A stretch of 64,000 bases of DNA from positions 1 through 64,000 of IMG/VR virus record IMGVR_UViG_3300046694_000196, one strand, 5' to 3'. The notes beneath the pieces were generated by a model. That model made no database searches and was not told where the DNA came from. It saw only the letters and a program-made list of their open reading frames with translations. The stretch is from a virus. The position numbers and the translations under genes are program-made. Every line of letters begins with the position of its first letter. Within the stretch, counting starts at the first letter, position 1. This document shows positions 6,623 to 9,178 of the stretch, piece after piece.

Positions 6623-7759
6623 ATGACGTCGAGCACATACGCGAAGTTCCTCCGTCGCCTGAACAAGAAGACGAAGTACAACCAGCACGAGCGCTCGATC
6701 GAGCTAAAGAACGAGGAAGAGATGACCGAAGAAGAGTTCCACGAAGAGATCGCCGGCATGGACGAGGAAGCCCTAGAGGCCCTCCTGGAAGCGATCGAGG
6801 GAGACGAGACGCTCGACGAAGTGTCCAAGGAGCGTCTGGCTTCTTACGTAGTCAAGTCTGTCACTTCCCACGCGAAGAACCGCAAGGCCTACAATGACGC
6901 ATCAGAAAAGCGCTACAATCGCGGTAATTCTATGCGTCGCGTCGCAAAGCAGGGACCTGAAGAGGGAGAAAGCAAAGAGAGACACGCGGAACGCGTAGCC
7001 ACCCTCAAGAGAGGCCGCGAGAAGGCTGACTCTGCAATGAAGCATGCTTCTAACAAGCTCGCTAACCGTACTTTGGGACTTAGCCGGGCAGGTGACAGAC
7101 TTGCCAAGGAAGAGTTCTCTCTCGAGGACGTCGTGGCCGCGGCAGTTTCCAAGAAGCCGGTCGACTTCCGTGAGATGGTCGAGGCCCTCATCGAGTCCAA
7201 GGTAGCAGCGGCTATCGACGGATACGTAGAGACTGCCTTCGAGGCGTTCATCGTCCCGGAAGAACAGATCGACGAGGCTAAGTTCAAGCTCAAGAACCGT
7301 CCCGGCCACAACCCTAACGCAACTCCTACCGAGTACAGCGCTGGTGGAGACAAGCTAAAGAAGAGCGGTGACAAGGCCTGGAACGCGGCTCACCGCAAGA
7401 AGACCGTGAACTCGCTCGTCAACAAGAATTCCAAGACCGTCAAGGAAGACGAAGACCTCGACATCGACGAAGTCATCGAGTCCCTGACCGATGACCAGGT
7501 AGAAGAAGTGCTGGCCGAGCTTGAAGCACTGGACCTCGACGGGCTCTCTGAAGAAGAGATCGCGGAAGTGTCCAAGGAGCGTCTCGGTGCTTACATCAAG
7601 AAAGCTAAGACGGATAACGCATTGATCTTTACCGGCAAGAAGAAAGATGGGAAGGTCCGTCACATCGATAATGCCATCGATAAGCTAGCTGCTAAGAATG
7701 AGAAATCAAAGAACCACCGTGCCTTTGAGTTTGGCATCGCTAAACTGATCAAGAAGTAA
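6623..7759 (+). CDS. Prohead core / internal head protein (gp67-position) with repeated basic modules
   Basis: Between gp20 and gp21; alternating acidic and Lys/Arg-rich segments; two E-VSKERL-xxY modules. Confidence 0.7.
   Translation: MTSSTYAKFLRRLNKKTKYNQHERSIELKNEEEMTEEEFHEEIAGMDEEALEALLEAIEGDETLDEVSKERLASYVVKSVTSHAKNRKAYNDASEKRYNRGNSMRRVAKQGPEEGESKERHAERVATLKRGREKADSAMKHASNKLANRTLGLSRAGDRLAKEEFSLEDVVAAAVSKKPVDFREMVEALIESKVAAAIDGYVETAFEAFIVPEEQIDEAKFKLKNRPGHNPNATPTEYSAGGDKLKKSGDKAWNAAHRKKTVNSLVNKNSKTVKEDEDLDIDEVIESLTDDQVEEVLAELEALDLDGLSEEEIAEVSKERLGAYIKKAKTDNALIFTGKKKDGKVRHIDNAIDKLAAKNEKSKNHRAFEFGIAKLIKK
6818..6837 (+). repeat. 20-bp direct repeat, second copy at 7565-7584
   Basis: gaagtgtccaaggagcgtct exact in both; a further 15-bp repeat atcaagaaagctaag at 7595-7609 and 8861-8875. 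Confidence 0.85.
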
Positions 7760-7768
7760 GGGACCGAG

Positions 7769-9178
7769 ATGAAGAGCTTTCGAGACTACATACAGGAAGT
7801 CGAGGGTCCTCGCTCTGAGCTCGACAAGCTCGTCGTGAAGGAGCACCCGGTCAAGGTCACCGACTACCCCGTGAAAGACGACGGCCAGGCAGTCAAGACC
7901 AAGAAGGACAAGACCCGCGCAGCCGACCAGCAGGGCGGCAAGGGCGTGAAGGCCTACGCGGCAGACAACGGCGTCAAGACCGACCCGATGTCTGAGGTGC
8001 CGGTCTTCCAGTCGGGCCGCGCCTACTCCAAGCAACAGATCATGCAGTACTTCAAGCCCGAGGCCCGCTCTTACGACGAGGTGAAGGCCGGGTACATCGA
8101 CGACCTGAACACTATCGCGGCCGAGATCGACTCCCTCGCGGCCGAGCTCACGAAGTACTCCAAGGAGAAGAACTCCTGGGTGGACCAGTACAGCGTCAAG
8201 GCCCTGGTGCGTCAGCTCCAGGACTTCCGTGACGAGCTCAACTGCCAGGTCAACAACGCAAAGCCGCCCGAGGCCCTCAAGCTCAAGGAGGGGCTGGAGC
8301 TCCTGGAACTCTCCCAGGAGAGACTGAAGGACTACCAGGGCAAGGCCAAGGACAGCCACAGGAAGAACCTGAAGTGGACCTCCTTCAGCGCGGCGGCTCG
8401 CAAGAAAAACGACAAGCGCGTCCTGGGGCTCGTTAACGCCTGGAAGCGCATCAAGGAAGAAGTCGAAGAGATCGACGAGGTCTCTCGCGAGCGTCTCAAG
8501 GCGTACGTGGCCGCGTCCAACAAGGACGCGAACAAGCACGACGCCAAAGCCGGCGAAGAGCTCGCGAACAGCGACTCCCTCCGAGCTCTCAAGCACCTGG
8601 CGAAGGTCGCTAAGCGAGTGAACGGCATCGCCCGCGCGCAGGGGAAGCTGAAGGAGTCCTTCGCTTCCGTGCAGAAGAAGATCTCGTCCTCAGAGCACCT
8701 GCCCATGAAGAACGCGGGGGCCATCCTCGCGAGTGCTTCGCGCAACGCTTCTGCCGAGGCAAAGCGCAAGAACCCGAAGCTCAAGCGAGTCAAGGAAGAA
8801 TTCGAAGAGGCCGTGACGCTGACACTCGACGAGGTCTCCAAGCAGAGACTCGGCGCCTATATCAAGAAAGCTAAGGACGATCATGCCCAGCGTTGGATCG
8901 ACATCAAAGGCTTCAAGGGCGGCAAAGTTCACAAGATTGCCAATCGTAGCAAGGGCATCGACAAGGCTGTCGACAAGCTGACCAAAGAAGACGTCAACGG
9001 TACGGCACCGGCTCCAGCAGACGGCGGCTCTCCCGAGGGACGCAAGCGCATCAAGAAGAACAAGGAGAAGCTCTCGGGCGTCTCGTTCCGCGAGTTCGCA
9101 GAGTCCTTCAAGGAACGCGTGCCGAAGCAGCTGCCCCGCAGGCCGAAGGGCACCAAAGAAGAGGAAGCGCGCAAGTGA
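7769..9178 (+). CDS. Prohead core / internal head protein (gp68-position) with repeated basic modules
   Basis: Overlaps gp21 start; three modules LLE-LSQERLKDY, IDE-VSRERLKAY, LDE-VSKQRLGAY. Confidence 0.7.
   Translation: MKSFRDYIQEVEGPRSELDKLVVKEHPVKVTDYPVKDDGQAVKTKKDKTRAADQQGGKGVKAYAADNGVKTDPMSEVPVFQSGRAYSKQQIMQYFKPEARSYDEVKAGYIDDLNTIAAEIDSLAAELTKYSKEKNSWVDQYSVKALVRQLQDFRDELNCQVNNAKPPEALKLKEGLELLELSQERLKDYQGKAKDSHRKNLKWTSFSAAARKKNDKRVLGLVNAWKRIKEEVEEIDEVSRERLKAYVAASNKDANKHDAKAGEELANSDSLRALKHLAKVAKRVNGIARAQGKLKESFASVQKKISSSEHLPMKNAGAILASASRNASAEAKRKNPKLKRVKEEFEEAVTLTLDEVSKQRLGAYIKKAKDDHAQRWIDIKGFKGGKVHKIANRSKGIDKAVDKLTKEDVNGTAPAPADGGSPEGRKRIKKNKEKLSGVSFREFAESFKERVPKQLPRRPKGTKEEEARK

What the first reader, a model, noticed from the sequence alone, without database searches (positions are those of the whole stretch)
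6623..9178. Head proteins built as protease-cleavable strings of repeated basic modules
The two genes between portal and protease are much longer than T4 gp67/gp68. They contain five copies of a module start: LDE|VSKERLASY, IAE|VSKERLGAY, LLE|LSQERLKDY, IDE|VSRERLKAY and LDE|VSKQRLGAY. Each copy follows an (I/L)-x-E site, the T4 gp21 cleavage consensus. Modules are Lys/Arg-rich and most end in a G...A..(K/R)L.KE-like tail. Exact DNA repeats (20 bp at 6818/7565; 15 bp at 7595/8861) and AT-richer codons in some modules suggest duplication or shuffling. Inference: these are polyproteins matured by gp21 into a family of basic internal peptides, which could condense DNA or be ejected into the host like T4 IPI-III anti-restriction proteins.
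Basis: partly seen in the sequence, partly recalled or inferred. Interest (0 to 1): 0.75.

Follow-up and report, generated by a model that had tools for sequence, protein, structure and literature searches.

The report
Cuttable basic-module head core proteins
Two head genes of an uncultured T4-like soil phage are ordinary prohead-core genes enlarged by five copies of a small, positively charged two-helix module, each preceded by the cutting motif of the phage's head protease. They therefore probably yield a set of small basic peptides inside the capsid, although no cut has been measured.

Summary
Genes A (6623-7759, 378 aa) and B (7769-9178, 469 aa) lie between a T4-type portal and a gp21-type (S77) protease. 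They hold five copies of a 45-98-aa basic helix-loop-helix module, each right after (I/L)-x-E.

A carries an internal gp67-like core. B starts with MKSFRDYIQE, a look-alike of the T4 capsid-targeting leader.

The module is widespread. An exhaustive profile search found 1230 protein clusters, with 2-8 detected copies in each of the 149 best-scoring proteins analysed.

With a model that starts after the cut position, 440 of 440 junctions have Glu at P1, never Asp. L/I/V/M fills P3 in 439.

Five relatives have a 10-residue T4-like leader fused directly to a module. This equates the junction with the known leader cut site.

All five complete genomes tested that carry the module encode an S77 protease. 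A close relative (capsid protein 94% identical) has 4+1 modules instead of 2+3. Three modules here have foreign codon usage.

Cleavage, packaging and function are inferred, not shown. I read this as a new variant of T4 internal and core protein processing.

This scan has noted similar "bead-string" polyproteins, including this same module, on other DNA before. I found no paper describing it.

The parts
4418..4425 (+). TATAAATA, the T4-type late promoter consensus, ahead of the tube-portal-A-B-protease gene row
   Evidence: There are 10 copies in the window against 0.08 expected. Other copies lie at 9856 and 10835, just before the scaffold and capsid genes.
5052..6611 (+). Portal protein (gp20-like)
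   Evidence: Pfam Portal_T4 7.8e-162; phrog_213
6623..7759 (+). Gene A: a 378-aa gp67-like prohead core protein enlarged by two modules
   Evidence: ORF. It has no Pfam or PHROG family as a whole. Modules were found, and the gp67-like core.
6623..6820 (+). A residues 1-66: acidic leader (net -12) ending in LLE56 and LDE66
   Evidence: It resembles the acidic element that precedes the long module in relative P0006 (by eye).
6812..6820 (+). Junction 1: LDE (A 64-66), predicted cut after Glu66
6821..7114 (+). Module A1 (A 67-164), the long 98-aa variant, GC3 0.57
   Evidence: Its nearest relative is module 3 of P0006.
7127..7276 (+). gp67-like core (A 169-218)
   Evidence: A profile built from 24 N-terminal segments of module-bearing relatives hits A 169-218 (24.7 bits), T4 gp67 4-56 (20.4 bits; 21.1 for the whole protein) and phiM12 gp059 (19 bits), but not T4 gp68 (0.9 bits). 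There is also a weak hit to phrog_14217 'prohead', E 0.028.
7439..7567 (+). Acidic element (A 273-315) with five L/I-x-E sites (plus VKE 273-275 and VEE 293-295), ending in junction 2, IAE (7559-7567)
   Evidence: The same element precedes a module in L010 A' and in P0006.
7568..7756 (+). Module A2 (A 316-360) plus a basic tail to residue 378; net +11, GC3 0.60
   Evidence: It is closest to B3 and shares a 15-nt exact repeat with it.
7769..9178 (+). Gene B: a 469-aa leader-bearing core or internal protein at the gp68 position, with three modules; pI 9.7
   Evidence: Its stop overlaps the protease start (9175).
7769..7798 (+). MKSFRDYIQE, a look-alike of the capsid-targeting sequence; predicted cut after Glu10
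   Evidence: The T4 IPII/IPIII leader MKTYQEFIAE was read from the T4 record. Residues 4 and 7 serve targeting and residues 8 and 10 serve processing (PMC9026906). It is the only such N-terminus in the 126-kb record.
7769..7957 (+). B residues 1-63: family shared with the 135-aa gene between portal and protease of Sinorhizobium phage phiM12
   Evidence: phrog_26626 4.6e-10; tblastn 43% identity to phiM12, phiM7, phiM19 and phiN3; position confirmed
8300..8308 (+). Junction 3: LLE (B 178-180)
8309..8461 (+). Module B1 (B 181-231), net +10 as the 181-230 fragment, GC3 0.88
8471..8479 (+). Junction 4: IDE (B 235-237)
8480..8659 (+). Module B2 (B 238-297), GC3 0.87; it ends in KLKE, itself an L-x-E site
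8825..8833 (+). Junction 5: LDE (B 353-355)
8834..8992 (+). Module B3 (B 356-408), GC3 0.70. It was modelled as helix 3-22, loop, helix 31-51.
   Evidence: AlphaFold2 pLDDT 69.7
8993..9175 (+). Basic C-terminal tail of B. The 356-469 fragment has net charge +16.
   Evidence: The tail is shared with the L010 orthologue.
9175..9843 (+). Prohead protease (gp21-like, S77), the predicted processing enzyme
   Evidence: Pfam Peptidase_S77 1.1e-37. It is 35% identical to T4 gp21, with the GEL(G/N)HP and SSRG(M/L)GS motifs aligned.
11037..11045 (+). LME|A in the capsid protein (aa 57-59), the counterpart of the T4 gp23 LTE|A maturation site
   Evidence: That it is the same site is an inference from its position upstream of the conserved VRRA(I/M)PNLIA motif.

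Best explanation
Genes A and B are the two small prohead-core genes that T4-like phages keep between portal and protease. A is a gp67 homologue. B is a protein with a T4-style capsid-targeting leader that sits where gp68 sits.

Both have been enlarged by insertion of a mobile module of about 45-100 aa. The module has a basic N-helix ((V/L/I)SK.(R/T)L..Y..KA), a variable loop, and a basic C-helix (KR..GI..A..KL.KE). An acidic linker ending in (L/I/V)-x-Glu precedes each copy.

Steps shown by sequence:
- The genes lie in a row headed by a T4-type late promoter motif, next to an S77 protease that keeps T4's conserved His- and Ser-containing motifs.
- The junction motif is invariant.

Steps inferred:
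- The proteins are built into the scaffolding core.
- The protease cuts after each junction Glu, and after Glu10 of B.
- This releases acidic scraps and six or so basic peptides of about 6-14 kDa (net +3 to +16).
- These peptides stay with the packaged DNA as counter-ions or internal proteins and may enter the cell with it.

Module number and order change quickly between relatives, so the modules behave as interchangeable cargo or filler rather than as a fixed structural ruler.
For: Context and enzyme. The leader on B matches the T4 leader in the residues needed for targeting (4, 7) and cutting (8, 10).

Small gp67-like genes lie directly after the portal in 19 related T4-context loci besides L010.

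The non-circular junction test used a profile that starts at P1'. It gave [LIV]-x-E at 61 of 62 junctions. In the representatives it gave Glu at P1 in 440 of 440, never Asp, although Asp makes up 8-17% of the acidic positions P5 and P7. P3 was L/I in 399 and V/M in 40. T4 work shows that Asp at the cut position blocks processing (PMC9026906).

Five representatives have a leader of exactly 10 residues (for example MKSFKEFISE, MKTFKQHLTE) followed at residue 11 by a module. Cr30 gp064 has MRSKILAE|ISKKTLANY.

The module is bipartite and helical. Module cores have a median net charge of +8, linkers -4, and junction-to-junction pieces +4 with pI 9.4. The products in this window are given.

The family is large: 1230 cluster representatives at E<=1e-3.

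In 24 of 79 related viral loci the match lay next to T4-like head genes, between portal and protease wherever both were in the locus. The rest lie in rows of genes that all start with leader-like peptides.

An S77 protease is present in all five complete module-bearing genomes tested, namely two metagenomic records rated 100% complete plus P-TIM68, Cr30 and S-SKS1, and also in one 33%-complete fragment.

Turnover is rapid. Relative L010 has a capsid protein 94% identical and a portal 84% identical, but A is only 25% and B 39% identical, with 4+1 modules. One L010 gp67-gene module is nearly identical to a module in the second gene of another relative. Three modules here have low GC3.
Against: No cleavage, packaging or DNA binding has been measured for any member. 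The only cultured carriers found (P-TIM68, Cr30, S-SKS1) annotate these genes as hypothetical, and I found no virion proteome covering them.

P1' is always L, V or I (one Met in 440), whereas the T4 sites visible have A, G, T or N.

The acidic linker is conserved as a whole in marine relatives, so part of the junction conservation could be structural or reflect recent duplication.

AlphaFold2 runs helices straight through the junctions, although at low confidence.

In T4 most fragments of gp22, gp67 and gp68 leave the head (PMC9026906), so retention is not assured.

T4 gp67, T4 gp68 and phiM12 gp058 lack the module, so nothing can be transferred from the T4 experiments on those proteins.
Confidence: 0.6

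Rival explanations
1. The junctions are cut, but the pieces are disposable. On this reading the modules are extra scaffolding-core mass that is chopped up and expelled before DNA packaging, as happens to most gp22, gp67 and gp68 fragments in T4. The mature virion would then hold no module peptides.
For: T4 precedent: core-protein fragments mostly exit the head (PMC9026906). A is a gp67 homologue. The pieces would be small, with a median of 76 aa.
Against: The T4 proteins that stay are the basic ones. These pieces are basic (core median +8) and would meet incoming DNA. Fast turnover, foreign codon usage and presence in rows of leader-tagged cargo genes look more like cargo than scaffold.
Confidence: 0.2
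2. The junctions are not cut. On this reading the (L/I)-x-E plus acidic linker belongs to the fold (a helix cap or a charge clamp on the basic hairpin). A and B act as long, uncut, repeat-built core or internal proteins, and at most the N-terminal leader of B is removed.
For: The whole linker (E at P8, P7 and P5; Q at P4; D at P2) is conserved in marine relatives. The models predict continuous helices across the junctions. P1' is hydrophobic, unlike the T4 sites seen.
Against: Asp never replaces Glu at P1 in 440 junctions, while Asp is common at neighbouring acidic positions. In the window's own clade only P3 and P1 are kept, while P2 and P4-P8 vary. Leaders of exactly 10 residues are fused to the module at the same Glu. 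The leader site of B and its relatives also has Val at P1'.
Confidence: 0.15
3. The released modules are injected effectors, like T4 IPI*. They would be small proteins that enter the host with the DNA and block a defence system, with rapid module turnover reflecting an arms race.
For: Module number and order are hypervariable between close relatives. There are signs of horizontal acquisition. Relatives lie in rows of leader-tagged enzymes. T4 IPs are diverse anti-restriction proteins that share only the leader (PMC3012670).
Against: All copies share one simple two-helix design with a variable loop and no fold or family match. This looks generic, like charge and DNA binding, rather than target-specific. 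There is no functional data.
Confidence: 0.1

Closest known systems
T4 internal proteins IPI, IPII, IPIII (and Alt): capsid-targeting sequence plus gp21 processing
   Same: B has a 10-residue N-terminal leader of the same pattern as T4's MKTYQEFIAE. The protease is of the gp21 type, with the L/I-x-E rule. The products are basic, and the repertoire is hypervariable between relatives.
   Different: Each T4 IP is one domain behind one leader, encoded away from the head genes. Here several copies of one module are strung in a single chain with a cut motif at every joint, inside the portal-protease gene pair. There is no sequence similarity to any T4 IP.
T4 prohead core proteins gp67 and gp68
   Same: The genes are in the same place, between portal and protease. 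A holds a gp67-like segment. T4 gp67 and gp68 are also cut into several fragments by gp21 (PMC9026906), and T4 gp68 has a very basic C-terminal part.
   Different: T4 gp67 is 80 aa and gp68 is 141 aa, and neither has the module. A does not reach Pfam GP67. B shows no similarity to gp68 families and carries an IP-type leader instead.
phiM12-type small genes between portal and protease (phrog_26444, 56 aa; phrog_26626, 135 aa)
   Same: B residues 1-63 belong to phrog_26626. The phiM12 56-aa protein matches the gp67-like profile. The gene order is the same.
   Different: The phiM12 proteins have no modules. They look like the unexpanded state.
Inner-body and ejection proteins of giant phages (phiKZ, 201phi2-1, SPN3US), processed by gp21-related proteases after x-x-Glu
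   Same: There are many cuts after Glu in head-internal proteins by a diverged gp21 homologue, and the mature fragments stay inside the head (PMC9026906).
   Different: The protein families and the P3 preference differ, and there is no repeated module. The similarity is one of principle only. I did not test it by sequence.
Polyvalent proteins of phages and conjugative elements (Iyer et al. 2017, PMC5512222)
   Same: They are multi-module proteins thought to travel with the DNA and sometimes to be cut into parts.
   Different: Polyvalent proteins combine unlike enzymatic and DNA-binding domains, often with their own embedded peptidase. A and B have one repeated non-enzymatic module and rely on the separate head protease.

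Membership tests
T4 gp67 (Pfam PF17634 GP67; phrog_1064 / phrog_14217 'prohead') | Sequence match to the family model | tested here: inconclusive
   Pfam GP67 does not hit A or its 164-236 segment at E<=1. phrog_14217 hits weakly (E 0.028). A profile I built from 24 N-terminal segments of relatives hits both T4 gp67 (20.4 bits for residues 4-56; 21.1 for the whole protein) and A 169-218 (24.7 bits), but not gp68.
T4 gp67 | Gene directly after the portal gene, in the late head operon | tested here: met
   A starts 12 nt after the portal stop. The late promoter motif is at 4418. The order matches T4.
T4 gp68 (phrog_1049 and relatives) | Sequence match to the family model | tested here: not met
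   B hits only phrog_26626. T4 gp68 hits phrog_1049, 14114 and 3503 and not 26626. Only the position, directly before the protease, is shared.
T4-type internal proteins (CTS-bearing head cargo) | N-terminal ~10-residue leader with aromatic or hydrophobic residues at 4 and 7 and (I/L)-x-E at 8-10 | tested here: met
   B is MKSFRDYIQE and T4 is MKTYQEFIAE. The roles of residues 4, 7, 8 and 10 come from PMC9026906. A has no such leader.
T4-type internal proteins | Incorporated into the prohead core and present in virions | not testable with these tools
   The phage is uncultured, and I found no proteome for any module carrier.
Substrates of the gp21-type (S77) prohead protease | L/I-x-E motif at the proposed cut sites, and an S77 protease in the same genome | tested here: met
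   All five junctions and Glu10 of B fit the motif. The protease is adjacent and the motifs it shares with T4 gp21 are aligned. Glu is at P1 in 440 of 440 junctions in relatives. S77 is present in all five complete module-bearing genomes tested.
Substrates of the gp21-type prohead protease | Actual cleavage after the Glu | not testable with these tools
   This needs mass spectrometry or an in vitro assay.
phrog_5709 (unknown function), the PHROG that covers the module in marine relatives | Match to the family model | tested here: inconclusive
   Relatives P0004, P0005, P0006, P0008 and P0011 match (5e-5 to 8e-16). A and B themselves do not at E<=0.01, but they are linked to those proteins by phmmer and profile searches.
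Pfam DUF7443 (PF24227) | Score above the gathering cut-off (27 bits) | tested here: not met
   The only hits are sub-threshold and partial, over the junction plus N-helix of P0005 (25.2 bits) and P0008 (19.2 bits). A and B have no hit.
Polyvalent proteins (Iyer et al. 2017) | Several unlike enzymatic or DNA-binding domains in one chain, often with an embedded peptidase | tested here: not met
   A and B have no Pfam domain, and they carry a single repeated module.

The most novel reading that the evidence does not exclude
The acidic linker plus (L/I)-x-Glu plus basic hairpin is a self-contained, mobile 'load-and-cut' cassette. Each joint would double as a capsid-targeting signal and a protease site, so any phage with an S77 protease can gain or lose small DNA-bound or injected proteins simply by recombining cassettes into its core genes. 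The released peptides would form a large, undescribed class of phage 'protamines' or co-injected effectors that tune DNA packing, ejection or defence evasion.
Probability: 0.2. Interest if true: 0.75.

Novelty: new variant of a known kind. Interest (0 to 1): 0.55.

Why it matters
T4's internal proteins and core fragments are the textbook case of proteins loaded into a capsid by a short leader and trimmed by the head protease. If the reading is right, many environmental T4-like phages use the same two rules to make whole sets of small basic proteins from one gene.

The family has more than a thousand protein clusters and no Pfam family, paper or structure that I could find. It also gives about 440 natural junctions as a ready-made specificity logo for S77 proteases: Glu only at P1, aliphatic P3, aliphatic P1'.

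It shows that gp67-like genes are far more widespread than the literature states. It also offers natural cut-and-load linkers for packaging foreign proteins in phage heads. Caulobacter phage Cr30 is cultured, so the prediction can be tested directly.

Tried and rejected
- Megablast of the head region against cultured phages found nothing.
- Pfam and PHROGs give no family for A. For B they give only sub-threshold Pfam hits plus phrog_26626 over residues 1-63.
- The isolated module has no Pfam hit at E<=1.
- The module profile has no match in PDB sequences at E<=10.
- Foldseek of the module model against PDB found nothing.
- The wide VIA-align search gave only a flat list of generic helical hairpins (Z<=7.4). 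This is no evidence of relationship.
- The ESM Atlas gave only unnamed viral clusters below 0.9 and generic hairpins.
- The single-sequence model of whole B is unreliable (pLDDT 47).
- I considered that the basic C-terminus of T4 gp68 (GLSKAKRRQIARKA...) might be a degenerate module. The profile gives E about 1, so I dropped the idea.
- I looked for other leader-bearing genes in the 126-kb record. Only B fits, and the record is 73% complete.
- A literature search for the motif string gave no paper.
- Searches for module polyproteins in T4-like phages gave only the T4 and giant-phage reviews and the polyvalent-protein paper.
- No virion proteome covering Cr30 or P-TIM68 module proteins turned up.
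- Chance or a non-coding artefact is rejected. Both are long ORFs in a late operon with homologues at the same place in relatives.
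Full report
**What is there**

The window comes from a 126-kb IMG/VR virus record rated 73% complete.

Positions 4466-12137 are a classical T4-type head block:
- tail tube
- portal (5052-6611)
- gene A (6623-7759, 378 aa)
- gene B (7769-9178, 469 aa)
- S77 prohead protease (9175-9843)
- scaffold (9871-10830)
- major capsid protein (10869-12137)

The T4 late-promoter consensus TATAAATA occurs ten times in the window against 0.08 expected. Copies lie before the tube, scaffold and capsid genes. 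A and B therefore sit in a late row of tube, portal, A, B and protease. In T4 the same two slots hold gp67 (80 aa) and gp68 (141 aa).

**Check of the observation**

All five quoted module starts are present, each directly after (I/L)-x-E. Both exact DNA repeats are real.

The copies share an end as well as a start, namely (K/N)R..G(I/L)..A..(K/R)L.KE. The unit is therefore a bipartite module of 45-98 aa with a variable middle.

AlphaFold2 models module B3 as helix 3-22, loop, helix 31-51 at moderate confidence (pLDDT 69.7). The whole-protein model is poor.

Third-position GC is 0.57, 0.60 and 0.70 in modules A1, A2 and B3. It is 0.85-0.90 in the neighbouring core genes and 0.87-0.88 in B1 and B2. 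Three modules thus look recently acquired from a lower-GC source, and two look old.

**What the two genes are**

*Gene B.* B begins MKSFRDYIQE. The T4 IPII/IPIII capsid-targeting leader, read from the T4 record, is MKTYQEFIAE. In T4, residues 4 and 7 serve targeting and residues 8 and 10 serve cutting (PMC9026906). B matches at all four of these positions.

B residues 1-63 belong to phrog_26626. This is the family of the 135-aa gene that lies between portal and protease in Sinorhizobium phage phiM12. B shows no similarity to T4 gp68.

*Gene A.* A has no family hit as a whole. I built a profile from 24 N-terminal segments of module-bearing relatives. It hits A 169-218 (24.7 bits), T4 gp67 4-56 (20.4 bits; 21.1 for the whole protein) and the phiM12 56-aa protein (19 bits), but not gp68. 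In 19 related T4-context loci besides L010, the gene after the portal is a small gp67-like protein.

The ancestral state is therefore portal, small gp67-like gene, leader-bearing gene, protease. In this phage both middle genes have been enlarged by modules.

**The module family**

A phmmer search with B found metagenomic proteins made of tandem modules of the form '...KAVDKLTKEE-VEQIDE|LSKKTLGSYVKKA...'.

An exhaustive profile search of 1.84 billion cluster representatives used a profile that starts at the residue after the proposed cut. It found 1230 proteins at E<=1e-3 and 241 at E<=1e-10. The best 149 hold 2-8 detected modules each.

No Pfam family covers the module. There are only sub-threshold, partial hits to DUF7443. 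The marine forms fall in phrog_5709, of unknown function.

The module profile matches no solved structure by sequence. Fold searches return only generic helical hairpins.

Among cultured phages I found the module only in Prochlorococcus phage P-TIM68, Caulobacter phage Cr30 and Synechococcus phage S-SKS1 (a siphovirus to my knowledge; the record's taxonomy gives no morphology). It is annotated as hypothetical in all three.

**Is the junction a protease site?**

The profile contains nothing upstream of P1', so the upstream residues give an independent test.

- In 62 distinct junctions from IMG/VR loci, 61 have [LIV]-x-E. The background is 1.9% per position.
- In 440 distinct junctions from the representatives, P1 is Glu in all 440 and never Asp. 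Asp supplies 8-17% of the acidic positions P5 and P7.
- P3 is L/I in 399 and V/M in 40.
- T4 genetics shows that Asp at the cut position blocks processing.
- In the window's own clade P2 and P4-P8 vary freely (GDETLDE, SEEEIAE, EGLELLE, EVEEIDE, VTLTLDE) while P3 and P1 hold.

The most telling point concerns leaders. Five representatives have a leader of exactly ten residues, for example MKSFKEFISE, MKTFKQHLTE and MKHYKDLVSE, followed at residue 11 by a module. Cr30 gp064 starts MRSKILAE|ISKKTLANY. The Glu of the module junction is thus interchangeable with the Glu at which T4 leaders are known to be cut.

The protease next door is 35% identical to T4 gp21, and the motifs GEL(G/N)HP and SSRG(M/L)GS are aligned. 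That these hold the catalytic His and Ser is from my memory of the gp21 literature.

The capsid protein keeps an LME|A site where T4 gp23 has LTE|A.

All five complete module-bearing genomes tested encode an S77 protease, as does one 33%-complete fragment. The four records without one are 35-74% complete fragments.

**Predicted products**

Cutting at the five junctions and at Glu10 of B gives these fragments:
- A 1-66: net -12
- A 67-315: net -6
- A 316-378: net +11
- B 11-180: net -2
- B 181-237: net +5
- B 238-355: net +10
- B 356-469: net +16

Using all L/I-x-E sites splits these further. The result is basic pieces (+3 to +16, 50-125 aa) and short acidic scraps.

Across the family, module cores have a median of 62 aa and net +8. 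Linkers have a median of 7 aa and net -4. Junction-to-junction pieces have a median of 76 aa, net +4 and pI 9.4.

**Evolution**

A close relative (L010, a 136-kb contig) has a capsid protein 94% identical, a portal 84% and a protease 80%. Its A is only 25% identical and its B 39%.
- Its A starts directly with the gp67 core and has four modules.
- Its B has one module.
- Its fourth A module is almost identical to the first module of the B-like protein of another relative, P0003. Modules therefore move between the two genes.
- The long A1 variant recurs in the A-like P0006, but on the other side of the gp67 core.

In 24 of 79 related IMG/VR loci the match lay next to T4-like head genes, between portal and protease wherever both were in the locus. 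In the others I inspected, it lies in rows of genes that nearly all begin with leader-like peptides (MKSFKSFISE, MKTFKQFLEE, MKNYRQLIRE and so on). These include cytidylyltransferase-like proteins, DUF6267 proteins and a zeta-toxin-like protein.

**Mechanism, with what is shown and what is inferred**

*Shown by sequence:*
- location in a row of head genes headed by a late-promoter motif
- a leader on B
- a gp67-like core in A
- a repeated basic two-helix module
- an invariant aliphatic-x-Glu junction
- co-occurrence with S77 proteases
- rapid module turnover

*Inferred:*
- incorporation into the scaffolding core
- cleavage at each junction (I put this at about 65%)
- retention of the basic pieces with the DNA (about 40%)
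- any role in ejection or anti-defence (10-15%)

*Against:*
- P1' is always aliphatic, unlike the small residues at the T4 sites.
- Most T4 core fragments leave the head.
- The linker may be partly structural.
- No member has ever been assayed.

**Comparison with what is known**

The system works like T4's internal proteins and core proteins, with a leader, the gp21 rule and basic products. It differs in stringing several copies of one mobile module into the portal-protease genes.

The concept of head-protease-processed internal proteins is established for T4 and the phiKZ-like giants (PMC9026906, PMC3012670). A review states that gp67 and gp68 are missing from all cyanophage genomes (PMC2984593). 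I found no paper on this module or on such polyproteins. The nearest concept, polyvalent proteins (PMC5512222), differs in content and in protease.

Earlier notes of this scan describe the same kind of 'bead-string' head polyprotein, including one with the same ELSK.TL.SY..KA module, on other DNA. They are unchecked AI notes that agree with my reading but are not independent evidence.

**Verdict**

This is a new variant of a known kind, and it can be tested directly in Caulobacter phage Cr30.

Noticed in passing
window 795, 4418, 9856, 10835, 13075, 16406, 29015(-), 35536, 40804, 62636: TATAAATA, the T4 late-promoter consensus, occurs ten times in this 59% GC window against 0.08 expected. Several copies lie just upstream of structural genes. 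T4-type late transcription signals therefore seem to be kept in this high-GC phage.
   Followed up: partly
window 12243-13079 (+): The 278-aa ORF right after the capsid gene has a NUMOD3 motif (Pfam 2.6e-7) and, by eye, a GIY-YIG-like N-terminus. It is probably a homing endonuclease, like the seg genes beside T4 gene 23.
   Followed up: partly
L015 2487-11432; L021 2916-9278; L031, L037, L040, L043, L076, L085, L090 (IMG/VR loci): Outside the head operon, module genes lie in rows of genes that nearly all begin with T4-leader-like peptides (MKSFKSFISE, MKTFKQFLEE, MKNYRQLIRE and so on). These include cytidylyltransferase-like proteins (PF01467), DUF6267 proteins and a zeta-toxin-like protein. 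They look like large arrays of capsid-loaded cargo.
   Followed up: partly
L001 (P-TIM68) 1728-5966; L094 (Cr30) 2584-5810: In both cultured phages the module protein lies just downstream of an annotated cytidyltransferase gene (adjacent in P-TIM68; one small ORF lies between them in Cr30). This matches the metagenomic rows and suggests a conserved linkage that I did not explain.
   Followed up: no
L095 (Synechococcus phage S-SKS1) 4471-6519; record position 103231-103695: S-SKS1 (a siphovirus, to my knowledge) carries one module in SWZG_00082 and also encodes an S77 (gp21-type) protease. The module therefore follows the protease type rather than myovirus morphology.
   Followed up: partly
L036, L039, L044, L045, L054-L056, L060-L062, L066, L070, L071, L074, L077, L083, L091: Small gp67-like genes (66-126 aa) lie directly after the portal gene in many related T4-like contigs from metagenomes. 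A published review says gp67 and gp68 are missing from all cyanophage genomes (PMC2984593). I did not establish whether any of these contigs are cyanophages.
   Followed up: partly
window 7799-7957 (B residues 11-63) and relatives P0003, P0008, phiM12 gp058: After the leader, the proteins in the second slot share a conserved stretch (P(R/K)S(E/D).E..F..KH.V...D.P) of unknown role. It may be the part that docks onto the scaffold.
   Followed up: no
window 9175-9234 (protease residues 1-20): The protease starts MKLITELTE-EIGYAEQIDE-A (GTG start read as Met), with two L/I-x-E sites in its first 20 residues. This recalls the LIE-9 motif discussed for T4 gp21 self-cleavage.
   Followed up: no
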